Notes under the pieces: model-generated
What the model saw: only the letters and a program-made list of their open reading frames with translations
What the model was told of the DNA's origin: nothing
Database searches by the model: none
NCBI GenBank assembly: GCA_964386725.1
Contig: CAYLTX010000024.1
Location: 1 to 24,253, forward strand
From: an uncultured Bradymonadales bacterium
Lineage (GTDB): Bacteria > Myxococcota_A > Bradymonadia > Bradymonadales > Bradymonadaceae
Reading direction: 5' to 3'
DNA length: 24,253 nt
Program-made: the position numbers and the translations under genes
Part shown: positions 1-22,172 of the stretch, piece after piece
Position numbering within the stretch: position 1 is the stretch's first letter
How the letters are laid out: each line of letters starts with the position of its first letter

Positions 1-1110
1 GCGGTCAGTTATATCTGGGAGTTTGTCCCCGCCCATTTCGAGCTTCAGGAGCACCACCAGGAGCGTGCAGTGTGCGCGTGCGGATGCTTTCTGTACGGCC
101 CGACGCCCGAGCGCGTCGCCGACGGGGTCATCTACGGGCCGGGGCTTCACGCCGACGTGGCCGTCTCGAAGTGCGACGACAGCCTGCCGATTGAACGCCA
201 GGCCAAGCGGATTCGCCGGGCCGGCATTCCGATGAGCCGAAGCAGCCTCAACGACGTATTTCACCGCACAGCCGAGCTGCTCACGCCCATCTGGCGGCGC
301 ATCCTCGAGCTCATCGCCCAAAGCGAGCACGTCTCGGCCGACGAGACGCCGATCAAGGTCCAGGACAAAGGCAAATGCCGCAAAGGCTGGATGTGGACCT
401 TCATCGCCCGCGGCTTGGTGGCCTACGTCTTCAGCGCATCGCGCAGCGGGCAGACGCCGGTGGACGTGCTCGGCGAGACCAGCGGCACCATCCAGGTCGA
501 CGGCTACTCGGGCTACAACACGATTAGCTGCCCCGAAGGCCGCACCCGATGTGGCTGCTGGGCACATGCGCGCCGCAAATTCTGGGACGCCTTGAAGTAT
601 GCGCCCAAAGAAGCGAGGTGGGTGCTCGACCAAATTTTGAAGCTCTACGAGGTCGAATACGAGGCCCACGAAAAGAAGATCATGGGCAGCGAGGCTCACA
701 AATTTTTACGCCAGGCCAAATCAAAGCCGCTCGTCGACGGGCTCTTCGAGTGGCTCGACGACCAAAAAGACATATGGCCGCCCAAAAGTCCGCTGGGTGA
801 GGCCATCAAATATGCGATCAATCAAAAAGAACCCCTGTCACATTTTTTGGACGAGCCGAAGGTCCGGCTGGACAACAATTTGAGCGAGCGACATCTCAGA
901 TTGGTGGCGCTGGGCCGCAAAAACTTTCTATTCGTCGGCCACGACACCGGCGGCAAGAACCTGGCGATCTTGCAGACGATCGTTGCGAGCTGTGTCGCCA
1001 ACAAGATCAACCCGCAAGAGTACCTGACCGACGTGATCATGCGGGTGCAGCATCATCCGCAGTCACGCATCGACGAGCTGCTTCCCGATCAGTGGAAGCC
1101 GCCCGGCTGA
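1..1110 (+). CDS. tnpC: IS66-family transposase (TnpC), 5'-partial. The reading frame is open from base 1, so the N-terminus lies outside the window.
   Basis: The translation has the typical IS66 TnpC layout. There is an N-terminal Cys cluster (CACGC), then PIERQAKRIRRAGIPMSRSSL, HVSADETPIKVQ and the DGYSGY block. The C-terminal region carries CWAHARRKF and LDNNLSERHLR motifs. The same frame has no stop codon between position 1 and the annotated Met at 70. Confidence 0.85.
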   Translation, partial: AVSYIWEFVPAHFELQEHHQERAVCACGCFLYGPTPERVADGVIYGPGLHADVAVSKCDDSLPIERQAKRIRRAGIPMSRSSLNDVFHRTAELLTPIWRRILELIAQSEHVSADETPIKVQDKGKCRKGWMWTFIARGLVAYVFSASRSGQTPVDVLGETSGTIQVDGYSGYNTISCPEGRTRCGCWAHARRKFWDALKYAPKEARWVLDQILKLYEVEYEAHEKKIMGSEAHKFLRQAKSKPLVDGLFEWLDDQKDIWPPKSPLGEAIKYAINQKEPLSHFLDEPKVRLDNNLSERHLRLVALGRKNFLFVGHDTGGKNLAILQTIVASCVANKINPQEYLTDVIMRVQHHPQSRIDELLPDQWKPPG

Positions 1111-1270
1111 AAGGCGGGATCGATTTACTCTAAAGTAAGGGGGCGTCAGCTCAGTCGCGTCATCTGCGCCGATACGTTTCCGTGCTCCTCGGCGGGCGAA
1201 AGGCTTGCCCGCGCTCGTCGCACGAATGCGGACAAGCTGTCCGCGCTCCAAGTCAGCTACGCCGGGGACG
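1..1270 (+). mobile_element. Right-hand portion of an IS66-family insertion sequence. The exact right terminus is not determined; it lies somewhere between 1111 and ~1270.
   Basis: The transposase CDS ends at 1110 and is followed by ~160 bp of non-coding sequence before the CRISPR array. I could not confirm a terminal inverted repeat by eye. Confidence 0.45.
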
Positions 1271-1274
1271 ATGT

Positions 1275-1609
1275 CTGCCGGACGGATACGCGGGGCTGAA
1301 CCGCGTTTTGGGACTATCAGCGCAGGTACATTGAGGTGTTCCCCGCGTCCGCGGGGCTGAACCGTGCGCGACCATCTTCGCCCCGCTTGCCCACTCGTGT
1401 TCCCCGCGTCCGCGGGGCTGAACCGCGCGCTGGGCTCAACGCCATTTCGGTGCAGCCGTGTTCCCCGCGACCGCGGGGCTGAACCGGGACTGTCTCCGCG
1501 TGAGCGGGGCCACCCGGTATGTTCCCCGCGATAGCGGGGCTGAACCGTGGATCGGCGACAACAATTATTACCGGTTCGCGTGTTCCCCGCGTTTAGCGGG
1601 GCTGAACCG
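1275..1609 (+). CRISPR. Small CRISPR array with type I-E-like repeats. It has 5 clear repeats plus a degenerate leading half-repeat. Consensus is GTGTTCCCCGCGTCCGCGGGGCTGAACCG (29 bp) with 32-bp spacers.
   Basis: Repeats lie at 1336-1364, 1397-1425, 1458-1486 (T>A variant), 1519-1547 (ATGTT...ATAG variant) and 1580-1609 (30 bp, TTTAG insertion). A half-repeat at 1275-1303 matches only the 3' CGCGGGGCTGAACCG. All five spacers are exactly 32 bp (1304-1335, 1365-1396, 1426-1457, 1487-1518, 1548-1579). The repeat closely resembles the E. coli type I-E repeat GTGTTCCCCGCGCCAGCGGGGATAAACCG. Confidence 0.85.
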
Positions 1610-1636
1610 CTGTTGGACGGCGGTATACCCTACTGC

Positions 1637-1662
1637 TGACGCCCAGAGGACGTCAGTCCAGT
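1637..1662. repeat. Left copy of a perfect 26-bp direct repeat, TGACGCCCAGAGGACGTCAGTCCAGT. It folds into a 6-bp-stem hairpin.
   Basis: An identical 26-mer occurs at 2317-2342. Each copy contains CTGACG..CGTCAG inverted arms. Confidence 0.9.
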
Positions 1663-2316
1663 AGTGGCGGCGAGCGTCGTGAGGCTACGGGTGAAGTTGG
1701 GGGTCGAGTCTCATCGTTACCCACATCACTGGAGCTCTAAATCGGGAGCCCTGAACGGTCACCGAAGGCTCCCCGATGAGCGGAACGAAGTGGAGCGCCG
1801 CGCCCCGTTGTTTAGGGGCGCCTTTGTAGCCCCATGTGACCGAATGGAACGTGGGGATCGGGCGTTGCGAACCGACCATATCATTGTATCCACCAACGAT
1901 ATGCTCGAATAGCGCGCTCGAGATTGCGCGTTGGGGCTTGATTGCCAGCCCCACCCTTACCCCAAGCTTCCTTCGCTAGCGCTACGGTCGCATGGGGCTA
2001 CAAAAGCCTCTCTCCGTTTCACTCCGCTCGGCGACGCTTCGCCTACGGCTACGCTCATCGAAAGGCTCCTTTCCCCGGGCGACGAGTTGATTTCCACAAC
2101 TCAGAGATGTGGGTAAGGATGAGGATCGAGTAGCACGTAAGGCCGACCGAGGTCGGAAAATCTGGGGGGCGAGTAGCTCGTCATTCCGACGTGAGGTCGG
2201 GTAAGTTGGGCGTCGAGAGGCGTGTAGTTGCGACGTGAGGTCGGTTCGAGCCCGTGCACGTTCAGGTTCACGGGTCTAATGGGACCGTAGCGGCCGTTCG
2301 AAGATGTCGATGATCG
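1663..2316. other. GC-depressed, ORF-poor, hairpin-dense non-coding island. It may be a structured ncRNA or a small non-autonomous element, but it is unclassified.
   Basis: There is no convincing ORF on either strand. Hairpins include CGGGAGCC..GGCTCCCC, GCGCCCC..GGGGCGC and CCCGTG..CACGGG (2250-2275). Three related stem-loops of the form CCGAC-(CGAG/GTGAG)-GTCGG lie at 2143-2156, 2186-2200 and 2231-2244. GC content is visibly lower than in the flanks. Confidence 0.3.
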
Positions 2317-2342
2317 TGACGCCCAGAGGACGTCAGTCCAGT
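2317..2342. repeat. Right copy of the perfect 26-bp direct repeat.
   Basis: It is identical to 1637-1662. It lies 73 bp downstream of the kinase gene stop at 2415 on the minus strand. Confidence 0.9.
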
Positions 2343-2414
2343 CGAGCCGGCGGGCATCACCACCAGACATGGGAAGGTCTGGCACCGGTGTTGGGCGATC
2401 GCCGCTCGGCCGGC

Positions 2415-5400
2415 TCAGCGTTGCAGGCGGCGGCGTTGGGCGTCGGCGAGGCGGGCGGCTTGGGCGGCGCGGGTGGGGTGGTCTTGGGCGGTGAGGGTTT
2501 GGTGGGCGGCTTGGGCGGCCCAGAGGATGTAGGGGAAGACGAAGTCGAGGTCGGCGTGGAGGCGGGCGGCTTGGGCGTGGGCGGTGTCCCAGGCGTCGAG
2601 GTCGCCGAGCTTGGCGAGCAGGGGGAGTCGGGCGCTGTGGTAGACGAGGTGGTAGACGTAGCGGCCGTCGAGGTCGACCACCGCGCGCATGGGCTCGAGC
2701 AGGGCCTGGGCGCGCTGGAGTCGGTCGTCGGCGACCGCTGTGATCGCTGCGCCGGCGCGGGCCAGGTCGGTCAGCCGGGAGTCGACCGCGCCGAAGAGGT
2801 CGAGGGCGTCGCGGTAGATCTGCCAGGCTTCGGCGGCGTCGCCGCGCTCGGCGGCGAGGTCGGCCATGAGCCGGCGGGCCATGCCCATGTAGACGGGCAT
2901 GCCCGTGGAGTGGGCGATTTGGTGGGCGTGTCGGGTCAGCGTGCCGGCGGCGGCGAAGTCGCCGCGGAACCAGGCGATCTCGGCGCGGCCCTGGTGGCAC
3001 CAGCTCAACTCCTCGCGCACGCCGTTGCTCGGGTCCGCCCCGCCCAGCTCGATGGCCTCGTCGAGCAGCGCTTCGCCGCGGTCGAGTTGGCCGGCCAGCA
3101 GGCGCAGCCAGCCCTGGCCGCCCAGCGCCTTGACCTGCCCCTCGATGTCGCCGACCTCCTCGAAGAGATAGCTGGCGTGGTCGTAAAAATGTGCGCCGCG
3201 CTCGACGTTGCCGTCGAGCCTGTCCAGCTCGCCGAGGACGTAGGAGATCGTGGCCAGCCCGGCCGGGTCGTCGAAGTGGGCGACCTCCTCGAAGAATCGG
3301 TTCGCCCAGCGACGCGCGCGCTCGGGTTGGCCGATGATGCGGCTGATGTCGGCCTGCAGGGGCATGTCGGCGGCGCGCCGGGGATCGGTCTCGGGCAGAT
3401 CGAGTTTGTCGACGACCTGCCGGTATTGGTCCAGCGTGGCCCGCGCGGCGGCGAACGACGAGGCGCGCAGGTGCTCGCGGCCGCTGTCGAGCAGGGGCGA
3501 TAGCGCCCGGTGATATTCTTCGGCCAAGAGCAGGTGCTGGGCGCGGCGGCGCGAGCGGGCGATGTTGTCGGGCTGCTCGGCCAACATCCGGGCGCAGGCG
3601 GCGTGGAAATGCTTCCAGAGGCCGGCGTCGCGGGCGCGCTGCTCGAGCGTCTCTCGCAGCGACTCGGTCTTGAAGCGCCATCCGGTCGGGGTGGAGACGG
3701 CCAGGCCGTGGCGGCCGAGCTCGTCCCACAGCAGCTCGGGCGGCTCGAGGCCGAGCAGCTCGACGACGCGCTCCCACTCGGCGCGAACGGCGGTCGTGCC
3801 CAGCGCCGCGGCCAGCTCGAGCGCGGTGAGCGCGTCGTCGGCGGCGGCCGGGGCCAGCGCGTCGAGGTGTCGGTCCAGGCGTCTCATCCACAGCGATTGG
3901 ATGTCGTCGGGGAAGGCATGCGGACCCTCTTTGCGCAGGCGATAGCCGTCGTCGCACTTGTCCAGCAGGTCGCATTCGAGCCAGTAGCGCACCAGATTGG
4001 CCGCGAATAGCGGCACGCCCTCGGTGTGCTCGACGAGCCGGTCGGCGAGCTCGGGGCTGAGCTCGAGCATCTGCGTGACGAGCTCGCGCTGCTCGGCGTC
4101 GGAGAGTCGCGCCAGCTTCAGCCGGCGCAGATTGCTCAATGTGAGCAACTCGCGGATATGCGGGTCGGAGGTCGCCGCCAGTTGACCGCGCGCGGTGGTG
4201 ATCAACACCAGACAGCCCAGCGGATCGCTGGAGTCTTCGCGCAGCAGGTATCGGGCCAATTGGAGCGATTCGCTGTGCGAGTCGACCGTGTCGAGCCACA
4301 AGATGAGCGGGCGCTCGGCGGCCTCGAGCGAGAGAAAGCGGGTCAGCACCGCCAGCCGTTGGGTCGGGTCGGAGAAGCGGAACTGAGCTCCATCTCGACC
4401 TTTCGCCGGGGACGGCCGCGGAGACGGTCGCATAAACTCGGTCAGCGCGGGGATGTCGACCTCCTCGATGACCCGCGCCACCTTGGCATCGTCCAGGTGC
4501 AGCCGGCTTCGGAAGTGCTTTTCGAGTCGCCGGTGGACTTTGGAGCGCGACAGGTCCCAGGTCCGCAAGTGATCGCCGAGCGCGCGTCGTAGCTCGTCGC
4601 CGCCGCGGCTGCTCTCCTGGTGAGAGATGCGAATGACCTTGGCGAGGCCGAGCTCCTGGGCGCGCTGGGTAAACCAGCCGAGCAGATGACTCTTGCCCAC
4701 GCCGGCTTCGCCGTTGATGAGCACGCCGCGGGTGCGCCGCTGGCGAAAGACGCGGCCGAGCTCGTCCCAAAGCATGTCGCGCTCGGCGTGCCGGCCGACC
4801 ATGGATAGGCGACGCAGCCCGAATAAGCCGACGCTCGCGGCGTGACGCTGCGAGTCCGCGGCCGCGCGCGCCCTCGCCTGCCAATCGTTGGGGAAGCCGG
4901 GGCGGTCGTAGTCGGGCAGATCGACGTGGTCGGTCAACGAGAGGACGCGCGGGATCAACTCGTCGGCCTCGTCTGCGTTGGAGCGTCCGCCGGCCGCGCC
5001 CGCGTCGACGATGCTCGAATCCTCCCACAGGCCGACGGGGCGGTCTTCGGGGGCGAGCATGGATTCCAGCGCGGTGCGGTTCTCCATGACCTCGTCGTGC
5101 TCGGCGACTCGGCGGTGCTCACCGGCGCGGTCGACGCGTGTGTCGGCCAGCGAGGGATCGACCTCCAGGACCTCGTCGATGCCGATATGGGATTTGGTCT
5201 CGGCGGTGGCCAGCGAGGCGGCGTCGTGGGCGTCGGCGGCGTCGCCGGTCGGTGGGGCGGGCTGGACCAGCGCGTTGTCGTCGAGCAACAGCAGGTTCCA
5301 GGCGGCGTCGGCCGCCGATTGAAACCGCCCGCGCAGATCTTTGGCCAGCAGCACCTCCAACCACTCATCGAAGCCGTCTGGGACGGCAAAGCGGGGCTCG

Positions 5401-6140
5401 AGCGGGGGCGGCGGCTCGTCGAGATGCCTCAACCACAGCCCGGTGGTATTGCGCGACTCGAAGGGCGGGTGCCCACAGGCGAACTCATAGGCCACGCACC
5501 CCAGCGCGTACAGATCCGTCCACGGGCCGAAGTCGCGCCAATGGCCGCGCACCTGCTCGGGGGCCATATAATAGGGCGTGCCGCTTCGGACCTGCTCGTC
5601 GCCGTCGCCGTCGCTGAGCGCCAGCGCTCGAGAGCGGGTGATCGCGTGGGCGAGGCCGAAGTCGCTCAGCAGCACCCGGTAGCCCTGTCGGGTCGGGTCG
5701 AGCAGGATATTGGCCGGCTTGATGTCTCGGTGGACCAGCCCGTGAGCGTGGCTGTGCGCCAGGGCGTCGAGCACCGAGACCAGGATCGCCCGCAGCGCCT
5801 TCCAATCCATCAATTGGGCGAGCCGCTCGAGGCTGCCTCCAGCGGCAAATTGCATCGCCAGCCAGGGGCTTGGGGCGGTAAAATCCCCTTGTGAGGCGCT
5901 CGCCTCGGCCTCGGAGACCCGCCCGTAGTCCAAGATCTGGACCACTCCCGGGTGGTCGAGCCGCGCCATCATGCGGACCTCCCGCTCGAAGGCGTGCTTG
6001 TGCGCCGAAGAGGTGGTCAAGGTCCGGCTGATCACCTTCACGGCCACCGGCTCGCCGGTGCGGTGGTGCTCACCGTACCAGACCTCGCCCATGCCCCCTC
6101 GACCCACACGGTTGTGGAGTTGGAAACGACCCAGTTTCAT
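2415..6140 (-). CDS. Large (1241 aa) multidomain Ser/Thr protein kinase. It has an N-terminal Hanks-type kinase, a central P-loop NTPase (NB-ARC/AAA-like) and a C-terminal TPR-like repeat region, i.e. STAND-like signalling kinase architecture.
   Basis: Kinase motifs are present: VGRGGMGEVWYG glycine loop, VAVK, HRDIKPANILL, DFGLA and GTPYYMAPE. Walker A GEAGVGKSHLL is at about aa 470. The C-terminal region is helical, leucine- and alanine-rich and repeat-like. The protein starts right at the kinase glycine loop. Confidence 0.85.
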   Translation of the reverse strand: MKLGRFQLHNRVGRGGMGEVWYGEHHRTGEPVAVKVISRTLTTSSAHKHAFEREVRMMARLDHPGVVQILDYGRVSEAEASASQGDFTAPSPWLAMQFAAGGSLERLAQLMDWKALRAILVSVLDALAHSHAHGLVHRDIKPANILLDPTRQGYRVLLSDFGLAHAITRSRALALSDGDGDEQVRSGTPYYMAPEQVRGHWRDFGPWTDLYALGCVAYEFACGHPPFESRNTTGLWLRHLDEPPPPLEPRFAVPDGFDEWLEVLLAKDLRGRFQSAADAAWNLLLLDDNALVQPAPPTGDAADAHDAASLATAETKSHIGIDEVLEVDPSLADTRVDRAGEHRRVAEHDEVMENRTALESMLAPEDRPVGLWEDSSIVDAGAAGGRSNADEADELIPRVLSLTDHVDLPDYDRPGFPNDWQARARAAADSQRHAASVGLFGLRRLSMVGRHAERDMLWDELGRVFRQRRTRGVLINGEAGVGKSHLLGWFTQRAQELGLAKVIRISHQESSRGGDELRRALGDHLRTWDLSRSKVHRRLEKHFRSRLHLDDAKVARVIEEVDIPALTEFMRPSPRPSPAKGRDGAQFRFSDPTQRLAVLTRFLSLEAAERPLILWLDTVDSHSESLQLARYLLREDSSDPLGCLVLITTARGQLAATSDPHIRELLTLSNLRRLKLARLSDAEQRELVTQMLELSPELADRLVEHTEGVPLFAANLVRYWLECDLLDKCDDGYRLRKEGPHAFPDDIQSLWMRRLDRHLDALAPAAADDALTALELAAALGTTAVRAEWERVVELLGLEPPELLWDELGRHGLAVSTPTGWRFKTESLRETLEQRARDAGLWKHFHAACARMLAEQPDNIARSRRRAQHLLLAEEYHRALSPLLDSGREHLRASSFAAARATLDQYRQVVDKLDLPETDPRRAADMPLQADISRIIGQPERARRWANRFFEEVAHFDDPAGLATISYVLGELDRLDGNVERGAHFYDHASYLFEEVGDIEGQVKALGGQGWLRLLAGQLDRGEALLDEAIELGGADPSNGVREELSWCHQGRAEIAWFRGDFAAAGTLTRHAHQIAHSTGMPVYMGMARRLMADLAAERGDAAEAWQIYRDALDLFGAVDSRLTDLARAGAAITAVADDRLQRAQALLEPMRAVVDLDGRYVYHLVYHSARLPLLAKLGDLDAWDTAHAQAARLHADLDFVFPYILWAAQAAHQTLTAQDHPTRAAQAARLADAQRRRLQR

Positions 6141-6391
6141 CGGTATTCCGGCCCGTCAAATACCTTTGATAATGAGGTGGATAGTAGTGTTTTTATAAGC
6201 CAATGTCCAAAGCGTGCGGATGCAATGCGAATAGTGTGATTTCGGGGTAATTTGTTGTTGAGGGGGCAAAAGACAGCCCCCCGAAAATCTTTATAAAGGG
6301 CTCGGCGTAGCGAGGCTATCGCGTACTAAGAACGTCTATTCTCTCGACTTGAGCCGGTGTGGGAGTACTTTTGGGGCGCGTCGGTGCCCTT

Positions 6392-6417
6392 ACTCGTCAG
6401 CCCAACTCGTCAGCCCA
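6392..6417 (+). promoter_or_regulatory. Perfect tandem 13-bp direct repeat (ACTCGTCAGCCCA x2), 14 bp upstream of the bphO start. It is a candidate operator or regulator-binding site.
   Basis: This is seen directly in the sequence. It lies in the divergent intergenic region between the kinase gene (minus) and bphO (plus). Confidence 0.25.
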
Positions 6418-6430
6418 GCAACGGTTTGCC

Positions 6431-7027
6431 ATGGAACGAAAACTGAGCGATCGGCTCAAAGCCGGCACCAGAGAGCAGCACGAGGCCGTCGAGCGCGCGG
6501 TCGAGCTGGACGCGGTGGCCGCCTCGCGGGAGGCATACCTCGCGCATTTATGCGCGCTGTGGGGCGTCCATGCGCCGCTGGAGGCCCGGCTGGCACGCCT
6601 GGACTGGGCACAAGTGGGCGTGGACTTCGAGTCTCGTCGGCGCGTCGAGTTGCTGCGAGCGGACATACGGGCGCTGGCGGCCGAGATCGACGTCGAGGCG
6701 TTGCCCACCTGTGAGCGGCTCGCGCCGGTGGAGACCATCTGGCAGGGGCTGGGCAGTCTCTACGTGCTCGAGGGCTCGCGGCTCGGTGGCCAGATGATCG
6801 CGCGGGCGCTCGAGCAGCGCCTCGGGCTGAGCCCCGAGCGCGCATGCCGATTCCTGTCGAGCCACGGCGTGAGGCTCGGGCAGAGTTGGAAGGCGTTTAA
6901 ATCTGCGGTCAACCGCGCCGGGGCCGAACACCCGGAATACGCTGCGACGGTGGTCGCCTCTGCAAACGACACCTTCGCGTCCGTCCAGCGCTGGTTCCAA
7001 GGTGAAGCGATTGAGCAGGCGAGGTGA
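6431..7027 (+). CDS. bphO: Heme oxygenase, the biliverdin-producing enzyme of the bacteriophytochrome operon.
   Basis: The N-terminal LSDRLKAGTREQHEAVE block is heme-oxygenase-like, with a proximal His in the conserved T..QH context. GSLYVLEGSRLGG matches the heme oxygenase signature. Its stop overlaps the phytochrome start region (TGACTCATG). The preferred start is the ATG at 6431 (MERKLSDRLK...); an alternative upstream ATG lies at 6359. Confidence 0.8.
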   Translation: MERKLSDRLKAGTREQHEAVERAVELDAVAASREAYLAHLCALWGVHAPLEARLARLDWAQVGVDFESRRRVELLRADIRALAAEIDVEALPTCERLAPVETIWQGLGSLYVLEGSRLGGQMIARALEQRLGLSPERACRFLSSHGVRLGQSWKAFKSAVNRAGAEHPEYAATVVASANDTFASVQRWFQGEAIEQAR

Positions 7028-7030
7028 CTC

Positions 7031-9400
7031 ATGAGCACCGAGAGATCCCGAGACGACGAGCTCGACCTGTCGGCCTGCGCCGAAGAGCCGATCCACATCC
7101 CCGGGGCCATCCAGCCCCACGGCCTGCTGCTCGTGCTCACCGAGCCCGAGCTCGAGGCCGTCCAGGTCAGCGAGAATGTCGAGGGGGTGCTCGGACGCGG
7201 CTGCGAAGAGGTGCTCGGCCGACGTGTCGAGCACCTCTTTGCCGAGCCTCGAGCCGAGCAGTTGCGTGCCCAATTGGCGACAGCGGGCGCGAATTATAGC
7301 GCGCCGCTGACGGTCGCCGTCGACGTCGAGCCGGCCGGGCAGTTGTGGTTCGACGCCCTCTGCCACCGCCACCAGGGGCTGCTCATCGTCGAACTCGAAA
7401 ACGCCCGTCCCAGCCGCGAAGACACGCAGTTGGGTCAACAGGGGCTGGGCCACCAAGCCGGCGCGCTGCACGCCCAGCTTCTGGGCGGCGCCTTCGGCAA
7501 GCTGGGCGCCGCGAGCGATCTGGTGCAGATGTGCGAGTTCATCGCCCGGGAGGTGCGCGATATCACCGGCTTCGACCGCGTCATGGTGTACCGTTTTCAC
7601 GAGGACAAACACGGCGAGGTCATCGCCGAGGCGCGCGCCGAGGAGGTGGACTCGTTTTTGGGGCTGCACTACCCCGCCTCGGATATCCCCGCGCAGGCCC
7701 GACGGTTGTATCGGCTCAACTGGCTTCGGCTGATCGCCGACGTCGATTACGAGCCGGCGCGCCTGGTCCCCCGGCAAAATCCGCATACCGGCGCCACCCT
7801 CGACATGAGTCACACCGGGCTTCGAAGCGTCTCGCCGATCCACTTGAAATATCTGCAGAATATGGGCGTGGGCGCCTCGATGTCGATCTCGCTGCTCGAG
7901 GGCGACGAGCTGTGGGGACTGATCGCCTGCCACCATCGAAGCGCGAAATTCGTGCCCCCCGCGGTGCGCTCGGCTTGCGAGCTGCTGGGCACGGTGTTGA
8001 GTCTGCAACTGGCCACGCGCGAGCTCACCGAGAACACGCTGCGTCGTGCCCGGCTCCAAACCCTTCAGGCCGAGCTTCTGCGAAGCGTCGCCGAGCACCG
8101 CACGGTCCTCGGCATGGCCCAGAACCGCCAAAACACGCTGCTCGATTTTGCCGACGCTACCGGCGCGGTCATTCAATTCGACGGACAGTGCCGATCGGTG
8201 GGCTCGACCCCCGACGATGACTTTATCGACGCGCTCATCGAATGGGTTTGCGAGCGTGCCGACGACGCCGTCTGGCACACCGACCATCTGTCGGCGGCGT
8301 ATCCGCCGGCCCGCGAGCATATTGATACTGCCAGCGGTCTTCTGGCCATCATTCTGTCTCGCACTGCCGGGGACGTGGTGCTGTTCTTTCGGCCGGAGGT
8401 CGTGCGCACCGTCGACTGGGCTGGAAACCCCAACAAGCCTGTAGACAAGGAGCCTATAGACAAGGAGCCTATCGACAATAAGCCCGTCGAGGCGGGTGCC
8501 GTCGCAACAGTGGGCGATATGCAGATGCTCACGCCTCGAAAGAGCTTCGAGTCATGGAAGGAGACCGTCTGCGAGCGATCGATCGCGTTCTCGGAGGCCG
8601 AGGTCGACAGCGCCCGCCAGCTCCACAACTCGCTGTTGACCCACATCATCGAGCGCGCCCAGGAGCTCGCCGAGGTCAACAAGGAGCTCGAGCGTAGAAA
8701 CGAGGACCTCGAGTCCTTCGCGTACGTGGCCTCCCACGACCTCAAGGAGCCGCTTCGCAGTCTGCGCGGCTACGCCCAATATCTGGACCGCGAGTGTTGC
8801 GACACCCTCGACGAGCACGCTCAGTCCAAGGTTCAAGGCATGCTGCGGCTGACTCAGCGCATGGACTCGCTGCTCGATTCACTGCTGCACTACTCGCAGG
8901 TGGCGCAGAGCGAGATCCAGCGCGAGCCCATCGATCTGAACCGGCTGCTCGACGAGGCGCTCGAGATCTTGGACCAGCGCTGCGAGGAGAGCGGCGCCGA
9001 CATCCGCGTGCCCCGCCCGCTGCCGCAGGTCGAAGGGGTGCATGTGCGGGTGCGCGAGGTACTGGTCAATCTGATCGGCAACGCGCTCAAGTACACCGAC
9101 GAGACCGACGCCATCGTCGAGGTCGGCTACCAGACGCCCGAAGAGCATGGCGAAGAAGGCCCCCTTCGTATCTACGTGCGCGACAACGGCATCGGAATAA
9201 AGGCGCGCTATCACGAGCGCGTCTTCGAGCTATTTCGCCGTCTGCACGAGCGCGACGCCTATGGTGGAGGCGCCGGCGCCGGGCTGACCATCGTCAAGAA
9301 GATCGTCGAGCAGCACGGCGGGCGCATCTGGGTGGACTCGGAGTTCGGCGAGGGGACGACCTTTTATTTTACGCTCGAGCCGGAACCCAAAGGCGGCTGA
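7031..9400 (+). CDS. bphP: Bacteriophytochrome histidine kinase with PAS-GAF-PHY-HisKA-HATPase_c domains.
   Basis: An N-terminal Cys in the LSACAEEPIHIPGAIQPHG context marks the biliverdin attachment region. The GAF DIP motif is HYPASDIP. The PHY tongue motifs are W(A)G (DWAGNP) and PRxSF (LTPRKSFESW). The H-box is FAYVASHDLKEPLRSL. The N, G1 and G2 boxes are LVNLIGNALKYT, DNGIGI and GGGAGAGLTIVKKIVEQHGGRIW. Confidence 0.92.
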   Translation: MSTERSRDDELDLSACAEEPIHIPGAIQPHGLLLVLTEPELEAVQVSENVEGVLGRGCEEVLGRRVEHLFAEPRAEQLRAQLATAGANYSAPLTVAVDVEPAGQLWFDALCHRHQGLLIVELENARPSREDTQLGQQGLGHQAGALHAQLLGGAFGKLGAASDLVQMCEFIAREVRDITGFDRVMVYRFHEDKHGEVIAEARAEEVDSFLGLHYPASDIPAQARRLYRLNWLRLIADVDYEPARLVPRQNPHTGATLDMSHTGLRSVSPIHLKYLQNMGVGASMSISLLEGDELWGLIACHHRSAKFVPPAVRSACELLGTVLSLQLATRELTENTLRRARLQTLQAELLRSVAEHRTVLGMAQNRQNTLLDFADATGAVIQFDGQCRSVGSTPDDDFIDALIEWVCERADDAVWHTDHLSAAYPPAREHIDTASGLLAIILSRTAGDVVLFFRPEVVRTVDWAGNPNKPVDKEPIDKEPIDNKPVEAGAVATVGDMQMLTPRKSFESWKETVCERSIAFSEAEVDSARQLHNSLLTHIIERAQELAEVNKELERRNEDLESFAYVASHDLKEPLRSLRGYAQYLDRECCDTLDEHAQSKVQGMLRLTQRMDSLLDSLLHYSQVAQSEIQREPIDLNRLLDEALEILDQRCEESGADIRVPRPLPQVEGVHVRVREVLVNLIGNALKYTDETDAIVEVGYQTPEEHGEEGPLRIYVRDNGIGIKARYHERVFELFRRLHERDAYGGGAGAGLTIVKKIVEQHGGRIWVDSEFGEGTTFYFTLEPEPKGG
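8432..8491 (+). repeat. In-frame tandem repeat (~15-bp units) encoding KPVD-KEPID-KEPID-NKPVE, located inside the PHY-domain tongue of bphP.
   Basis: The sequence is AAGCCTGTAGAC AAGGAGCCTATAGAC AAGGAGCCTATCGAC AATAAGCCCGTCGAG. It is locally AT-rich with rare codons (ATA, GTA, AAT) for this genome. Confidence 0.8.
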
Positions 9401-9436
9401 GCCATCTTCGTCGTTGTCTTCTTAGAGGGATTCCCG

Positions 9437-10591
9437 ATGACCTACGAATCGCCCCTTCACATCCTCATCGTCGACGATTGGCCCGAGCATCGGCAGGCGC
9501 TCAAGCGCGAGTTGTTGGTGGGCTTCGAGCGTCGACTCGACTTCACCGAGGCCGCAACGGGCGAAGGGGCGCTGGCGCTGGATTGCCTGCGAGCCGGCCG
9601 CCGGCCTGACGTGATGCTGCTCGACGTCAATCTGCCCGATTTGAGCGCCTTCGAGGTCCTCGAAGAGCTCGCCGAAAGGCACGGCCGGGTCGACCTTCCG
9701 GTGGTGACCTTGACCAGCGCCGCCGACCATCAGAAGGCAACCAGCGCCCTCGAGGCAGGCGCCCAGGACTTCCTCGACAAGTCCCACGTCGACGCCGAGT
9801 TGCTCACGCGGGTGGTGCGCAACTCCATCGATCGCTTTCGCCTGCTCGAGAAGGTCCACGCCAGCGAGGAGCGGTTTCGCCGATTTCTGGCCTATATGAG
9901 CCACGAGATCCGCACACCGATGACCGCGATCCTGAGCTACGCCGAGCTGTTGAACTTCCGGCTCGACGAGCCCGAGGCCCTGCAGTACGTCGGCACCATC
10001 ATGCGCAACGGCGAATATCTCATCGAGATCATCAACGACATCCTCGATCTGTCCAAGATCGAGGCCGGCCACCTCGAGATCGACCCCCAGCAGTTCTCTC
10101 TGCCCGAACTGGTCGAGGACGTCGTCTCCTTGATGCAGGTGCGCGCCGAGGAGAATTCGCTGCCGCTGCATGTCGAGTACGACGGGCTCATCCCCGAGAC
10201 CATCGTGAGCGACCCGGTGCGCCTGCGCCAGGTGCTGGTCAACTTGCTCGGAAACGCCATCAAATTCACCGAGGACGGCGAGGTGCGCCTGCGGGTGGCC
10301 ACGGCCTCTCACCAACTCGACCGGATCGTCTTCGAGGTCACCGATACCGGCATCGGGATGACCCAGGACCAGGTCGATCGCCTCTTCGAGCCCTTCCAGC
10401 AGGGCGACGCCTCGGTCACTCGCCGCTTTGGCGGCACCGGCCTGGGATTGGCCATCAGCAAGCGGCTGGTCGACCGGCTCGGCGGCGACATCGAAGTCGA
10501 AAGCGAATTTGGCCGCGGCAGTTCGTTTCGCTTCTGGATCGACAGCGGCCCGGTGGCCAGGACCTCGCTGGTCGCCCCGCCGGGGCGCTGA
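9437..10591 (+). CDS. Hybrid response-regulator receiver / histidine kinase (REC-HisKA-HATPase_c), the last gene of the phytochrome operon.
   Basis: The REC domain shows ILIVDD, LLDVNLPD (phospho-Asp), VVTLTS and DFLDKS. The H-box is YMSHEIRTPMTAI. HATPase motifs are LLGNAIKFT, DTGIGM and GGTGLGLAISKRLV. The RBS AGAGGGA lies ~7 nt upstream. Confidence 0.88.
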   Translation: MTYESPLHILIVDDWPEHRQALKRELLVGFERRLDFTEAATGEGALALDCLRAGRRPDVMLLDVNLPDLSAFEVLEELAERHGRVDLPVVTLTSAADHQKATSALEAGAQDFLDKSHVDAELLTRVVRNSIDRFRLLEKVHASEERFRRFLAYMSHEIRTPMTAILSYAELLNFRLDEPEALQYVGTIMRNGEYLIEIINDILDLSKIEAGHLEIDPQQFSLPELVEDVVSLMQVRAEENSLPLHVEYDGLIPETIVSDPVRLRQVLVNLLGNAIKFTEDGEVRLRVATASHQLDRIVFEVTDTGIGMTQDQVDRLFEPFQQGDASVTRRFGGTGLGLAISKRLVDRLGGDIEVESEFGRGSSFRFWIDSGPVARTSLVAPPGR

Positions 10592-10612
10592 GCCTCAGTC
10601 GCTCGTATAATC

Positions 10613-11506
10613 TCACTCGCCCGTATAGGGAGGATCGCCCGGTGAACGATAGCGATCGAGCGGGCTACGCTTCGCGTCGCTGCCAAAGTACCAGCCGCTG
10701 CCCCCCGGCTCGCCGAAGAGCAGATGAAGCTGGGCGCGCGTGCCTTCCTCGGGCGGCTTCATGCCCAGGTCGGCGGGCTCGGCGTCCCGTCGCTCGGCCA
10801 TCGGGCGGGTCAGATCGGTCTCGATAAAGCCGGGCGTGCAGGCGTTGATGGTCAGCTCGGGATGCTCGCGGGCCAGCGCGATGGTGTAGGCGTTCAGGCA
10901 GGCCTTCGACAGGCCGTAGGCCGAGTCGCTCGGCAGCCCGGCGGACTCGAAGTCGCCGTCGCCCTTTTCGATGGCCAGACACTCCTCCATGAGCGCTTCT
11001 ACCTGCTCCCATGTCACCTCCGGGTCGGTCAGTTGTCGCTGGCGCTCGGGGCTGCACTCGGCGACGAAGTTCGGCCCGGAGGCCGACGAGACGTTGACGA
11101 TGCGCCCGTCAGGGTCCGTCAGCAGCGGCAAGAAGGCCTCACAGACCCGATGCGGGCCGCGCACGTTGATATTGAGCACGGTCTCCATCGGGTAGCCGTA
11201 GTCGCCGATGCCGGCGTTGTTGACCACGCCGTAAAGCGCGTCGTCGCCGAGCGTCGCGGCGACCGCCTCGGCCGCGCCCGCCACCGACGCGTCGTCGGCG
11301 ACGTCCAGTTGGACCACCTCGATTCGATCGGCGGCCTCGGGTCGGTCGGCCACGAGCTCGTCGCGGGCTGTCTCACCGCGCTCGACCGAGCGGGAGCCGA
11401 GGAAGACGAACGTGTCGTCGCGCGCGTCGAGAATGGCGGCGACCGTCGCGCGGCCGATGCCTCGATTGGCGCCGGTGACGAGGATATATCTGGTGTTCTG
11501 GGACAT
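10613..11506 (-). CDS. Short-chain dehydrogenase/reductase (SDR) family NAD(P)-dependent oxidoreductase.
   Basis: The N-terminal ILVTGANRGIGRA is a Rossmann TGxxxGxG motif. The catalytic YxxxK appears as YGLSKACLNAY. NAG (VNNAGI) is present. Confidence 0.9.
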   Translation of the reverse strand: MSQNTRYILVTGANRGIGRATVAAILDARDDTFVFLGSRSVERGETARDELVADRPEAADRIEVVQLDVADDASVAGAAEAVAATLGDDALYGVVNNAGIGDYGYPMETVLNINVRGPHRVCEAFLPLLTDPDGRIVNVSSASGPNFVAECSPERQRQLTDPEVTWEQVEALMEECLAIEKGDGDFESAGLPSDSAYGLSKACLNAYTIALAREHPELTINACTPGFIETDLTRPMAERRDAEPADLGMKPPEEGTRAQLHLLFGEPGGSGWYFGSDAKRSPLDRYRSPGDPPYTGE

Positions 11507-11595
11507 GATGGGTATGCCGGTTGTGAGGGTTGTGGATGATTGGAGATATTGTGCAGGCCGCGACGATAGCGCCTCGGAGGCGCTTCGTTCAAGCT

Positions 11596-11885
11596 TGCGC
11601 GGAGGTCGCTGAGGCGCGGAGGTCGCTGAGGCTCTGAATCGCGGAGGTCGCTGAATCGCGGAGGTCGCTGAAGGCTGGAGCGCTAATCGCGGAGTAGCTG
11701 AAGAAGACGCGAAGGCACGCGAAAAGAGCTGAAAAAGGCCGCCCGTTGCGGCTCGGTGGTCGGTTTGGGAGGTCTTCAGTGCCTTTCGAGGGACTCAGCG
11801 GTGTCTTCAGCTTTTTGCGATCAGTGTTCAGCCCCTCCGCGAGATCTGCGTCTCTGAGTTTCAGAACCTCCGAGTTCACCGAAGC
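11596..11885. repeat. Copy 1 of a ~270-bp dispersed repeat with an internal imperfect palindrome. It contains 4 tandem CGCGGAGGTCGCTGA units.
   Basis: It aligns at roughly 85% identity (my estimate) with 14284-14545. Shared blocks are CGCGGAGTAGCTGAAGA..GCGAAGGCACGCGAAAAGAGCTGAA..GGGAGGTCTTCAGTGCCTTTCG..TCAGCGG.GTCTTCAGC..GTTCAGCC..GCGAGATCTG.GTCTC.GAGT. The GCTGAAG and CTTCAGC halves form inverted arms. Confidence 0.8.
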
Positions 11886-13365: not shown

Positions 13366-13791
13366 CTACGCCGCCACTGTAAGATCGAGGATGGTACGCG
13401 AATATCGACGCAGATCGTCGAGGTGATTTTCGACGATGTCGCGCACGATCTCATTGTCGAGCGTGCCGTAGGCGTGGACGGCGATATTTCGAAAGCCGAC
13501 CATCGAAATCAACGTGGCCGTGAAGTCCTCGTCCAAGATCTGACGGTCTCTGAGCATCTCGAAGGCCTGCGCAGCGCTCTTCGGTGTGGCCCATGCATTC
13601 TCGGCGATGAGGTGATTGGCGAGGTCGATGCTCGCCTCGACGGCGCGCTGGAGGTAGAGCGCGCAGAGGTCGTCGACGATCCACGGCTCGAGGGCGGCCT
13701 TTGGGCCGGTCACCTGCTCGATGCGCTTGAGGGCCTCGTCGATATTGGCCAGCTTCCCCAATACGATATCTTCGTCGTGGTCGAGGCTCAT
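13366..13791 (-). CDS. hepT: HepT-family HEPN-domain toxin (DUF86) of a HepT/MntA toxin-antitoxin pair.
   Basis: The Rx4HxY motif reads FRNIAVHAY. The start ATG overlaps the MntA stop in an ATGA arrangement (13788-13791). The extended 290-aa ORF in the track is a frame artefact. Confidence 0.85.
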   Translation of the reverse strand: MSLDHDEDIVLGKLANIDEALKRIEQVTGPKAALEPWIVDDLCALYLQRAVEASIDLANHLIAENAWATPKSAAQAFEMLRDRQILDEDFTATLISMVGFRNIAVHAYGTLDNEIVRDIVENHLDDLRRYSRTILDLTVAA

Positions 13792-14207
13792 GAGCGAATC
13801 CTTCGGATGAGCGCCTCGTCGATGGGGCGGCGAAGATGCTTCCAGTCCTCGTAGATGGACGGCGTGTACATCTTGAACTCGGCCAGCGCGCGCTCGTCGC
13901 GGCAGACGATGAGCCGACCGCGCCGCAGGACCTGCATGTTCAGGATGGCGCCGGCGTCGAGCAGGTCGACCAGGTCGACTGTGCGGCCGACGACGGATGC
14001 CAGGCGCCCGGACAGCTCCATGAGCTCGTCGACTTCGAGGCGGCGGCCGGCGTCGACGGCGATGTCGAAGTCGCTGTCCGGCCCCAGACGATCGGCCGCG
14101 GCCGAGCCAAATACGTAAGCAAAGCGCAGCTCGGGGAGGTGCTCGGTGAGTGTTGAGGCGATCTCGTCGGCGCGGTCGATCTTTGGTTGTGGCTGCTCTG
14201 AGGTCAT
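13788..14207 (-). CDS. mntA: MntA-family nucleotidyltransferase antitoxin (minimal NTase).
   Basis: The GSx10DxD motif reads FGSAAADRLGPDSDFDIAV. It lies upstream of and overlaps hepT. Confidence 0.85.
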   Translation of the reverse strand: MTSEQPQPKIDRADEIASTLTEHLPELRFAYVFGSAAADRLGPDSDFDIAVDAGRRLEVDELMELSGRLASVVGRTVDLVDLLDAGAILNMQVLRRGRLIVCRDERALAEFKMYTPSIYEDWKHLRRPIDEALIRRIRS

Positions 14208-14283
14208 CGTGGCGCCGGCTGTTGGGTGAAAGGCTCACTCTAACTTCAAATTAGCACCAACACTACACGCGGACAATGTTTGG

Positions 14284-14545
14284 AGGCGCGGAGGCCGCTG
14301 AAACGCTGAAACGCCGAGGTCGCTGAAGGCCGGAAGCGCTGACCGCGGAGTAGCTGAAGACACCGCGAAGGCACGCGAAAAGAGCTGAAGACGGCCGTAC
14401 ATTGCAGCTATGTGGTCGGGTCGGGAGGTCTTCAGTGCCTTTCGCGGGATTCAGCGGGGTCTTCAGCCTTTCGCGATTAGCGTTCAGCCACTCTGCGAGA
14501 TCTGAGTCTCCGAGTCTCTGAGTCTCCGAGTCTCCGAGCCTCCGC
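14284..14545. repeat. Copy 2 of the ~270-bp dispersed palindromic repeat. It ends in 5 tandem 8-mers (GAGTCTCC-like) abutting the stop codon of the 1789-aa gene.
   Basis: It is homologous to 11596-11885 in the same orientation. The microsatellite CTGAGTCTCCGAGTCTCTGAGTCTCCGAGTCTCCGAGCCTCCG lies at 14500-14543. Confidence 0.8.
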
Positions 14546-17500
14546 TACTCCCCCTCCGGCACCGCCGCCCCACGCAGCGCGTCGAGCTTTTTCATCACCT
14601 CGTCGAGCTGCGCATCGCGCTTCTGATCGTCGTCAGCTTCCCGATAGACGAATTTCGCCAACGGCAAAATCGCGCTCTCGATGAGCCCGAGCTGCGACTC
14701 GAGGACCTCGCCGAGCTTGGTGGGCATATCGCCGACGACTTGGACTTCGAGCTTGGCCTTTTGCAGGGATTGGAGCGCTTGGGCCAGCGCCTGAGCGGCG
14801 GCTGGTTCGGTTTGTTGGTTAGTCGGTTCTTGGGGTCCCCTCCGCCTCGCTTCGCTCCGCACCTCCCCCGCTCGGGGAGGGGATATCTGCCTCTCTGCGG
14901 CCTTCTCTGCTGAGTCGGCGGCGCGCTCCAGCGCACCGCGGATGTGGGTGAGCTCGCCGCTGAGGCTGTCGGTGGAGAGCGCCGTGTGGACGTCTTCGAG
15001 GCGTTGGACGAGTGTGGAAAGGGGGCCGGCGACGCGGCTGACGGGGTCGTCCTCGCCGCCGCCCATCATCTTGCGGCGCTTGAACTCGCGGCGGATTTCT
15101 TCCCAGCGGGCTTCTTTTTCGGGCGTCATCTTGCCGCGCAGCTCGGCCAGTTTGAGCAGGTTTTGCTCGCTGCCGGTGGTCAGCGTCTGGGCTTCCTGGT
15201 TGTAGTGGTTGTCGATGAGCTGCTCGACCTCGTCGTCGTTCATAGCCGAGGCGAGCTTCTCGGTCATCTTATTCATGTTGCGGTAGCTGCCCTGCAGCTG
15301 GAAGGGCGGTTCGGTGCGGTACTCGTCCTTCTTGCCCGCCGAGATGATGTACTGCTGGTTGACCTTCAGCACCACGTCGCGGATCTGCATGAGCTTTTCG
15401 AGCACGTTGACGATCTCGCCGGCCTCGACCGAGGAGTAGGCGTGGTCGAAGTCGCTCAGGGGGACTTGCTTGCCCTGGGCCATCTTCAAAAACCGGCCGA
15501 TATCGGCGCGCTCGCGGGTGACCAGCGGGGCGGTGACCTTGTTGGAGGTCAGCGCGTTCTCGATATAGCTGAGCTCGAAGACTTCGCGTTTGCCGTCGAG
15601 GATATCGCCCAAATTGTAAGTGTCGGCGCGGTTGGCGAGCATGTCCGGGATGGTGAAGCGCTCGCCGCTTTCGGTATACGGGTTGCCGGCCATGACCACC
15701 GCGAAGCGCTTGCCGCGCAGGTCGAAGGTCTTGGTCTCTCCGTTCCAGACGCCCTCGATGCGACGCGTGGAGTCGCATAGCGAGATGAATTTTTGCAAAA
15801 ACTCGGGGTGGGTGTGCTGGATATCGTCCAGATATAGCATCACGTTATTGCCCATCTCGAGGGCCTGGTTGATCTTTTCGACCTCCTGGCGGGCGGTGGC
15901 GTTGGGGGCCTCGGTGGCGTCGAGCGAGGTGACGTCGTGGCCCAAGGACGGCGCGTTGATCTTCATAAACATCAGGCCGAGCCGGTCGGCGACGTACTCC
16001 ATCAGGGTCGTCTTGCCGTAGCCGGGCGGCGAAATCAGCAGCAAAAGGCCGCTGCGATCCGAGCGGCTGTCCTCGCCGACGGTGCCCATCTGCTTGGCGA
16101 GGTTGTCGCCGATCAGCGGCAGGTAGGCCTCGTCGATGAGCCGGTTTCGCACAAAGCCGCTGAAGACCTGCGGCTCCATATCGTCGACGCGCAGCCGGCG
16201 GCGCTCGCGCTCGAGCAGCGCGCGGCTCAGCCGCTTATACTCTTTATAGGCGGGCACGTGCTCGTCGACGTAGCGGCGAAGCCGGGTCAAAAACTCGTCG
16301 AGGCGAAGCTCCATCGTGCCGTTGTCGATGCGCGGATGCTGGCCGAGCAGCTCTTTGACCTGGGTCGCGGTCTGCGCCGAGGTGGTCTGGCGGTCGATGT
16401 CCCCGTCGGTCAGGATCAGCGCGGCGACCTCGGGCACCAGGTGCGCGAGGTCGTCGTCGAGCTGGCTTTGCTCGAAGCCGGAGACCCAATCGACCATCAG
16501 ATCCCAGCTCGCGCTGAGGTCGCCCTCGAGCTTCTCGAGATCTTCGTCGAAGTCGAGGTGGGAGTGGTGGCGGTCGAGGTAGTCGTAGAAGGCTTTGCGC
16601 AGATCGGTGGCTTCGCCGCTGGCGATAAACCGGGGGTCCTGGTCGACGAGCTCTTCGGCGAGGTAGCGGCCGGCTTCGCGGGCGAGGCCCGTAAGCTGAT
16701 GCGCTGATGCGCTGAAGCGGGCAAGCTGCCCGCGCTCCATGAACTCTTCTATCTCCGTCGCTAATTCTTGGCCCAGCCGCTCGAGCGGCTCACCGTGGGC
16801 GAAGACCTCGCGCAGCCGGCCGAGGCTGACGCCGCGGCGCGCCCACCTCCGGCGCTGCTCGGGCTGGTCGGCGTAGGCCCAGAAGACCGTGGCCAGCGCG
16901 CGCGCCTCGGGGGTGTAGCGCAGCAGGCCGGCGGTGGCGTACATGCCCATGAGCTTCTTGAGGATCTTGATCGTATCGTCGTCGTGCACGCCGCGCTCAT
17001 AGCCCTCGTCGTAGCGCTCGTTCATGCGCTCGCGGATGAGCTTTCTGAGCGTGTCGGTGTCGCTGAGCAGGGCGTGCAGCTCGTCGACTGTAAGCTCGCT
17101 ATCGTTCTTCTCGGCCTCGAAGAGGATCGTCGCCGCCAGGTATTCGGCGCGGTAGACCTCGTCGGTCTCCGAGATGAGGTGCTGGTCCCAAAAGGGCCGC
17201 GTCTTGGCGAAGTCCTCGTCGTCGATCGGCTCGAGAAAGTCGGTGCCGGTGATATGCAGCGCCATACGTCTTTGGCCACCGTCTGGGCCGCCATCATCGT
17301 GGGGCACCATGGTCATCTCGGCCGGCTGCGTGTTCACGCTGAACCGGTGGCCGCCGAATTTGATGACGTTGTCGCCGCCCTCGAAGAGGTCGAGCTTGTC
17401 GCGCAGTTGGCGGACGGCCTTGTCCTTGGCGGCCTTGAGCTGGGTGTCGATGTCGTCGGCTTTGACGTCTTCTTCGAGCTCGCGCAGCCGCTCGACCAGG

Positions 17501-22136: not shown

Positions 22137-22172
22137 CAGCTTTCTCCTGTCTGGTGGTGATATTGCGCGTAA

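What the first reader, a model, noticed from the sequence alone, without database searches (positions are those of the whole stretch)
1..1620. Orphan type I-E-like CRISPR mini-array abutting an IS66 transposase, with no cas genes nearby
The repeat (GTGTTCCCCGCGTCCGCGGGGCTGAACCG, 29 bp, 32-bp spacers) is an unmistakable type I-E-like unit. In I-E loci the leader lies on the left in this orientation, and that position is occupied by the end of an IS66 element. No cas gene lies anywhere in the 22 kb to the right. The leader-proximal repeat is reduced to a 15-nt half-match and the two distal repeats carry mutations. This points to an IS-mediated disruption or deletion of the cas operon and leader, leaving a decaying orphan array. 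Alternatively it is a mini-array served in trans by a cas locus elsewhere.
Basis: partly seen in the sequence, partly recalled or inferred. Interest (0 to 1): 0.55.

Follow-up and report, generated by a model that had tools for sequence, protein, structure and literature searches.

The report
IS66 element inserted into CRISPR repeat
This is the trailer end of an ordinary type I-E CRISPR array in a Persicimonas genome, cut off from whatever lies upstream by an IS66-family insertion sequence that landed inside one repeat; nothing visible shows it is an orphan.

Summary
Five full repeats sit at 1336, 1397, 1458, 1519 and 1580. A 14-15-nt repeat stub sits at 1289/1290-1303. There are five 32-nt spacers, all in 61-nt register (62 nt to the 30-nt last repeat). 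The 3' part of an IS66 tnpC lies to the left, and no cas gene was detected in the 22 kb to the right.

The new result is the junction. Full copies of the same IS in other contigs show that the element ends exactly at window 1289, with a 22-bp terminal inverted repeat at 1268-1289. The "half repeat" is therefore a repeat split by a clean transposition, not a decayed one.

The visible block is the leader-distal fragment of an array. The leader, any further spacers and possibly cas1-cas2 would lie beyond the IS, at least 1.25 kb left of the window. I could not retrieve that DNA.

The variant distal repeats differ almost only in the hairpin loop, and all five keep the 6-bp stem, so "decaying" is not supported. 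The identical repeat sits beside I-E cas genes in two metagenome contigs. The spacers match nothing.

Orphan status cannot be decided from the window. This is a known kind of event and of low interest.

The parts
1..1289 (+). Right-hand 1289 bp of a roughly 2.54-kb IS66-family element; the rest lies left of the window.
   Evidence: blastn: window 1-1289 aligns to L008 10439-11724 at 92.3% and to L010 1390-2678 at 94.5%. Homology stops exactly at 1289. The full copy in L008 spans 9185-11724 and carries tnpA, tnpB (PF05717) and tnpC.
1..1110 (+). tnpC, C-terminal 369 codons, cut by the window start.
   Evidence: Pfam DDE_Tnp_IS66 1.6e-82 and DDE_Tnp_IS66_C 1.7e-11. 100% identical to the 515-aa P0001.
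1268..1289 (+). Right terminal inverted repeat of the IS (ACGATGTCTGCCGGACGGATAC).
   Evidence: Matches the left IR GTATCCGTCCGGCAGACCTCGT of L008 in reverse complement, 22 bp at 95%. The same termini are seen in L005, L006, L009 and L010.
1290..1303 (+). 3' stub of the split CRISPR repeat (GCGGGGCTGAACCG). The C at 1289 could belong to either the IS or the repeat.
   Evidence: In exact 61-nt register with the next repeat. The hairpin is lost.
1304..1335 (+). Spacer 0 (32 nt). It lacks an intact upstream repeat.
1336..1364 (+). Repeat 1, consensus.
1365..1396 (+). Spacer 1.
1397..1425 (+). Repeat 2, consensus.
1426..1457 (+). Spacer 2.
1458..1486 (+). Repeat 3, loop GACC.
1487..1518 (+). Spacer 3.
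1519..1547 (+). Repeat 4, G1A and loop GATA, stem kept.
1548..1579 (+). Spacer 4.
1580..1609 (+). Repeat 5 (30 nt), loop GTTTA, stem kept; the trailer-end repeat.

Best explanation
An IS66-family insertion sequence is inserted inside a repeat of a type I-E CRISPR array of a Persicimonas (Bradymonadales) bacterium. The element is about 2.54 kb, carries tnpA-tnpB-tnpC and has 22-bp terminal inverted repeats beginning GTATCC. The cut lies between repeat nucleotides 14-16. The window shows only the right junction and the leader-distal fragment: a 14-15-nt repeat stub, five spacers and five intact repeats. Shown: the IS terminus at 1289; the register of the stub; the type I-E identity and orientation of the repeat; the absence of detectable cas genes to the right. 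Inferred: the leader, the 5' part of the split repeat, any younger spacers and possibly cas1-cas2 lie on the other side of the IS. Inferred: the fragment is now uncoupled from the leader promoter and from spacer acquisition, so it is frozen. Inferred: spacer 0 cannot be matured, because the Cas6e hairpin upstream of it is destroyed. Inferred: spacers 1-4 could still yield crRNAs only if transcription reads through from tnpC (same strand) and a cognate Cas6e and Cascade are encoded somewhere in the genome.
For: Homology between the window and independent IS copies ends exactly at 1289, and the flanking DNA differs in every copy (L008, L009, L010). The 22-bp IR at 1268-1289 matches the left IR of L008. 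The stub is in perfect register. The same 29-mer forms a 21-exact-copy array next to cas3 and cse1 in L002, and a one-nucleotide variant follows cas1e-cas2e-leader in L001. All full repeats keep the stem, whereas the stub does not fold. TnpC is 100% identical to a full-length copy and the IR is nearly perfect, so the IS looks recent and intact. Host assignment rests on 94% identity to a Persicimonas sp. MAG.
Against: The left junction was never seen, so a simple insertion cannot be told apart from an IS-mediated deletion or inversion. No 8-bp target duplication could be checked here. Three other copies (L008-L010) show none, although these are metagenome contigs that may be chimeric across IS copies. 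No sigma-70-like promoter was found in 1000-2500. No cas gene of this organism was found: the Cas3 search returned only gammaproteobacterial-type relatives of 51% identity or more.
Confidence: 0.8

Rival explanations
1. True orphan remnant. After insertion, recombination between IS copies or an IS-adjacent deletion removed the leader, the rest of the array and the cas operon. The genome has no I-E cas genes, and the five spacers are inert.
For: No cas genes in the 22 kb to the right. The IS is multi-copy in related populations, which gives substrates for recombination. No Persicimonas Cas3 appeared among the 120 best relatives of the L002 Cas3. The exact repeat is absent from 185,579 representative genomes.
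Against: Nothing positive shows a deletion. In the common I-E layout the cas genes lie on the leader side, which is exactly the unseen side. Repeat stems and handles are intact, with variation confined to the loop. Another array with the identical repeat exists in an unannotated NCBI contig of 11,512 bp (P0139), although its organism is unknown.
Confidence: 0.2
2. A stand-alone secondary array with its own leader to the left of the IS. It was never adjacent to cas genes and is served in trans by a cas operon elsewhere. The IS insertion merely split it.
For: I-E genomes often carry more than one array. L002 shows an array with its own AT-rich leader that is not downstream of cas2. P0139 indicates that a second array with this repeat exists in some NCBI assembly.
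Against: No cas locus of this organism could be located. It is unknown whether P0139 comes from the same genome (not on record; no accession).
Confidence: 0.25
3. Assembly artefact: the contig joins a collapsed IS copy to the array, and the IS is not really there.
For: The source is a short-read assembly. The Logan contig for this IS (L004) stops at window 1229, 60 bp before the junction. Flanks of IS copies in other metagenome contigs lack target duplications.
Against: The junction falls exactly at the IS terminus, and the repeat stub is in exact array register. A chimeric join would not produce that. The stub needs some event that removed 14-15 nt of a repeat.
Confidence: 0.04
4. A mini-array carried by a mobile element (phage, plasmid or transposon cargo).
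For: A predicted viral contig carries a 3-repeat mini-array of the same repeat family (L011 3704-3852).
Against: The window's right flank holds chromosomal-type genes that are syntenic, at 88-94% identity, with a Persicimonas MAG contig. The IS ends at 1289, so the array is not IS cargo. Other copies of the IS carry no array.
Confidence: 0.03

Closest known systems
Type I-E CRISPR arrays (E. coli K-12 type: 29-nt repeat, 32-nt spacers, Cas6e hairpin)
   Same: 29-nt repeat, 32-nt spacers, a CCCCGC/GCGGGG stem with a 4-nt loop, and a 3' ...AACCG handle. The identical repeat lies next to Cas3 (NF007248, 1304 bits) and Cse1 (NF007247) in L002, and a one-nucleotide variant follows Cas1e/Cas2e in L001.
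   Different: No leader and no cas genes are visible in the window. The host is a Bradymonadales bacterium. The exact repeat is rare: 0 of 185,579 representative genomes and 2 metagenome contigs.
IS-interrupted CRISPR-Cas loci (for example IS elements in Shigella I-E loci; Chen et al. 2019, as cited in PMC8616872)
   Same: A transposable element inserted in a CRISPR locus, separating array parts from the leader.
   Different: Here the IS is an IS66-family element and the insertion is inside a repeat. The functional outcome was not tested.
Orphan CRISPR arrays (for example E. coli CRISPR4 I-F remnants with anti-cas spacers; Almendros et al. 2016, as described in PMC8616872)
   Same: A small array with no cas gene on the visible side.
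   Different: Orphan status is unproven. The spacers do not match the cas genes available here (L001, L002) or anything else. The spacer comparison against all held loci and the window itself returned no hit.
IS66 family insertion sequences (tnpA-tnpB-tnpC, IRs starting GTA, 8-bp target duplication; from general knowledge of the family)
   Same: TnpC Pfam domains. tnpA and tnpB (PF05717) lie upstream in full copies. 22-bp IRs begin GTATCC. Length is about 2.54 kb.
   Different: No 8-bp duplication is seen in the three copies where both flanks are held. It could not be tested for this copy.

Membership tests
Type I-E CRISPR array | Regularly spaced direct repeats of about 29 nt with unique spacers of about 32 nt | tested here: met
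   five full repeats plus a stub, period 61 nt, five distinct 32-nt spacers.
Type I-E CRISPR array | Repeat forms the Cas6e-type hairpin followed by an 8-nt handle ending AACCG | tested here: met
   6-bp stem, -12.2 to -12.9 kcal/mol in all five full repeats. The handle CTGAACCG is invariant.
Type I-E CRISPR array | The same repeat is associated with I-E cas genes somewhere | tested here: met
   L002: exact repeat x21, followed by Cas3 and Cse1. L001: Cas1e-Cas2e-leader-array with a one-nucleotide variant.
Type I-E CRISPR array | Leader upstream of the first repeat | tested here: not met
   The position is occupied by the IS (1-1289). Any leader would be beyond the window.
Type I-E CRISPR array | Adjacent cas operon in this locus | not testable with these tools
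   The right side is negative. The left side is outside the window, and the source contig was not retrievable.
Type I-E CRISPR array | Spacers derived from mobile elements | tested here: inconclusive
   No match in INPHARED phages. In PLSDB plasmids only 25-nt chance-level hits (E 0.6 or higher). No match in IMG/VR with flipped positions masked. No hit in the spacer comparison against the window and held loci.
IS66 family | DDE TnpC transposase | tested here: met
IS66 family | tnpA and tnpB upstream of tnpC | tested here: met
   Not inside the window. Present in the homologous full copies L005, L006, L008, L009 and L010 (PF05717).
IS66 family | Terminal inverted repeats | tested here: met
   22-bp IR, window 1268-1289 against L008 9185-9206.
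IS66 family | 8-bp target-site duplication | tested here: inconclusive
   The left junction of this copy was not seen. L008, L009 and L010 show no duplication, possibly because of chimeric assembly.
Orphan CRISPR array | No cas genes on either side and none cognate in the genome | not testable with these tools
   Only the right side could be examined. The Cas3 search was uninformative for this taxon.

The most novel reading that the evidence does not exclude
The IS-severed five-spacer fragment is still expressed by read-through from the co-oriented tnpC and is used in trans by a Cascade encoded elsewhere, so the IS would act as a mobile promoter for a frozen set of guides. Alternatively, and independently, the unexplained roughly 700-nt highly structured, direct-repeat-flanked non-coding segment just downstream of the array (1630-2345) is a new structured RNA or a small non-autonomous mobile element.
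Probability: 0.1. Interest if true: 0.4.

Novelty: new member of a known kind. Interest (0 to 1): 0.15.

Why it matters
It matters little beyond annotation. The result shows that a "half repeat next to a transposase" should be read as an IS insertion point, and that orphan status must not be called from one side of a contig that starts inside a repeated element. It adds an I-E-type array to Bradymonadales, a poorly studied predatory lineage, and documents an apparently recent and intact IS66-family element there. If the left flank does carry cas genes, the locus is a routine IS-interrupted CRISPR-Cas system.

Tried and rejected
- Source contig: I tried to fetch it through exact protein look-ups. 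The kinase and the hybrid kinase were not on record. The phytochrome gave only a 3.4-kb Logan contig from SRR15425352. The NCBI contig of 57,176 bp exists but was not retrievable.
- Genome collection: the exact repeat gave 0 hits. The kinase gave one Persicimonas MAG contig that ends inside the kinase gene, before the array side.
- Array-ORF trick: searching with a reverse-strand translation of an array found P0139, an array with the identical repeat in an NCBI contig of 11,512 bp. Its contig is not on record and has no accession.
- Cas3 search: I looked for Persicimonas names or a contig length of 11,512. There were none, only gammaproteobacterial-type relatives.
- Contig edge: I tested whether the window start is a contig edge by looking up the 369-aa and 346-aa partial TnpC. 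Both were absent, which is inconclusive, partly because a GTG start would be translated as V rather than M.
- Other negatives: Rfam CRISPR-DR and any other family, none; tRNA or tmRNA, none; sigma-70 promoter or terminator scan of 1000-2500, none.
- Rejected: a coding tandem repeat.
- Rejected: the apparent 'GTAAGGGGGCG' at 1137 as an IS end. It is internal to the IS and conserved in L005.

Full report
**Observation**

The 29-mer GTGTTCCCCGCGTCCGCGGGGCTGAACCG occurs exactly at 1336 and 1397, and with one mismatch at 1458; none is expected by chance. Its 3' 15-mer occurs six times, at 1289, 1350, 1411, 1472, 1533 and 1595, with 61-nt spacing (62 for the last unit), against 0.33 expected.

The units are as follows:
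- Stub: 1289/1290-1303.
- Repeats: 1336-1364, 1397-1425, 1458-1486, 1519-1547 and 1580-1609 (the last is 30 nt).
- Spacers, each 32 nt: 1304-1335, 1365-1396, 1426-1457, 1487-1518 and 1548-1579.

ORFs across the array are 68 aa or shorter and change frame at every unit, so it is not coding. The ORF at 1-1110 is the C-terminal 369 residues of an IS66 TnpC.

**Type and orientation**

The exact repeat is rare. It gave 0 hits in one genome per 185,579 species and 2 hits among JGI metagenome contigs.
- L002 carries an AT-rich leader, an array with 21 exact copies, then Cas3 (NF007248, 1304 bits) and Cse1 (NF007247).
- L001 carries Cas1e, Cas2e and a leader, then an array whose repeat differs by one loop nucleotide and whose last copy is identical to ours.

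So the repeat is a genuine type I-E repeat, and in the orientation written the leader lies on the left. The variant repeats on the right are at the old, trailer end.

**The key result: where the IS ends**

TnpC homologues led to full copies of the same IS in unrelated contexts.
- In L008 the element spans 9185-11724 (2540 bp) and carries tnpA, tnpB (PF05717) and tnpC.
- Window 1-1289 aligns to L008 10439-11724 at 92.3% and to L010 1390-2678 at 94.5%. Both alignments stop exactly at window 1289.
- Window 1268-1289 (ACGATGTCTGCCGGACGGATAC) is the reverse complement of the left terminal repeat GTATCCGTCCGGCAGACCTCGT (22 bp, 95%).
- The same termini, each followed by different flanking DNA, are seen in L005, L006, L009 and L010.

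The IS therefore ends at 1289, and the next base starts GCGGGGCTGAACCG, which is nucleotides 16-29 of a repeat in perfect register with the array. The "15-nt half-match" is a repeat cut by a transposition event, not a degenerate repeat. The IS lies inside the array rather than in a former leader. The left end of the IS would lie about 1250 bp to the left of the window start.

**State of the remaining repeats**

Seven of about eight differences from the consensus fall in the 4-nt loop (GTCC to GACC, GATA and GTTTA); the eighth is G1A in repeat 4. All five full repeats fold into the same 6-bp hairpin (-12.2 to -12.9 kcal/mol), and the 8-nt handle CTGAACCG is invariant. The stub has lost the hairpin. 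A loop variant also occurs in the large L002 array. This pattern suggests constraint on the stem and handle, not random decay.

**Surroundings and host**

To the right lie the following features:
- A roughly 800-nt non-coding stretch.
- A Ser/Thr kinase with AAA_16 and TPR domains (2415-6140, minus strand).
- A bacteriophytochrome histidine kinase (7031-9400).
- A hybrid histidine kinase (9437-10591).
- A short-chain dehydrogenase (SDR) (10613-11506, minus strand).
- A HepT toxin (13366-14238, minus strand).
- A 1789-aa DUF3686 ATPase (14545-19914, minus strand).
- A flotillin-like protein (19914-22136, minus strand).

No Cas model in Pfam, NCBIfam or PADLOC matched any of these or the unannotated ORFs. 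Because L002-type loci have cas3 directly after the array, that layout is excluded here.

The region from 2609 to 11494 is 88-94% identical to a contig of a Persicimonas sp. MAG. Window proteins occur on an NCBI contig of 57,176 bp and in Logan assemblies of SRR15425352 at 100% identity.

**What could not be settled**

The DNA left of the IS could not be obtained.
- A search with an array translated on the reverse strand found one further array with the identical repeat. This is P0139, with 11 exact repeat-peptide matches, on an unannotated NCBI contig of 11,512 bp. Neither its organism nor its neighbours could be read.
- A Cas3 search returned only gammaproteobacterial-type relatives down to 51% identity and no Persicimonas entry. 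That is uninformative rather than negative.
- The expected 8-bp target duplication cannot be checked here. It is not visible in L008-L010, which may be chimeric across IS copies.

**Spacers**

The spacers gave no match in 50,697 phage records. In 72,556 plasmid records there were only chance-level 25-nt hits. IMG/VR gave no match with every sixth position masked. The spacer comparison against the window and all held loci also returned no hit.

**Mechanism (inferred)**

- The fragment is cut off from its leader, so it can no longer acquire spacers or use the leader promoter.
- No sigma-70-like promoter was found nearby. Only read-through from the co-oriented tnpC could express the fragment.
- Spacer 0 lacks the upstream Cas6e site.
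- Spacers 1-4 remain processable if a cognate Cas6e exists.

**Comparison and verdict**

IS insertions in CRISPR-Cas loci and orphan arrays are both documented (review PMC8616872). This case is a new instance in a little-studied lineage, not a new kind of system.

Noticed in passing
window 1630-2345: A roughly 700-nt non-coding stretch lies between the array trailer and the convergent kinase gene. It is bracketed by perfect 26-nt direct repeats, TGACGCCCAGAGGACGTCAGTCCAGT, at 1637 and 2317 (42 nt at 88%). Inside are nested long-range inverted repeats at 1704-1731/2102-2129 and 1820-1842/1985-2007. The RNA fold z-score is -6.7 on the plus strand and -7.9 on the minus strand. It has no Rfam, tRNA, Pfam, plasmid or phage match. 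It could be a structured RNA, a small mobile element with att-like repeats, or a decayed gene.
   Followed up: partly
window 2106-2236: Three tandem units of about 44 nt. Palindromic CCGAC(C/GT)GAGGTCGG motifs are visible in the sequence at about 2143, 2186 and 2231, the last just past the array end; their coordinates are read by eye.
   Followed up: no
L011 3704-3852 (IMGVR_UViG_3300025018_000023): A predicted viral contig carries a three-repeat mini-array of the same I-E repeat family. The first repeat is GTGTTCCCCGCACACGCGGGGCTGAACCG and the next two copies are degenerate. No cas gene is seen in the 1 kb read.
   Followed up: no
P0139 (NCBI contig of 11,512 bp, not retrievable): A mis-called 219-aa 'protein' is the reverse-strand translation of an array with exactly this window's repeat (11 exact repeat-peptide matches). 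It is the only other occurrence found outside L001 and L002. It may or may not belong to the same genome.
   Followed up: partly
L008 9185/11724, L009 1376/3972, L010 136/2678: Three copies of the IS with both flanks held show no 8-bp target-site duplication. This is unexpected for IS66. Either the family member makes none, or the metagenome contigs join flanks of different copies.
   Followed up: partly
window 14545-22955 (minus strand): A co-directional cluster of a 1789-aa DUF3686 plus AAA ATPase (with a weak LmuB-like PADLOC hit), a 740-aa flotillin-like protein and a 260-aa unknown protein. A HepT toxin gene lies just upstream at 13366-14238. It may be a defence-type or repair-type module.
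   Followed up: no
window 11597-11702 and 14496-14551: Intergenic tandem repeats: a 17-nt unit TCGCGGAGGTCGCTGAA x5 (11623-11702) that overlaps a perfect 2.1-copy 17-nt repeat at 11597-11632, and an 8-nt unit GAGTCTCC x5.
   Followed up: no
L003 (JBKGZI010000203.1) against window 2609: The sister Persicimonas MAG contig breaks inside the 3' end of the kinase gene, about 1 kb before the position of the array. Whether that strain has the array or the IS is therefore unknown.
   Followed up: no
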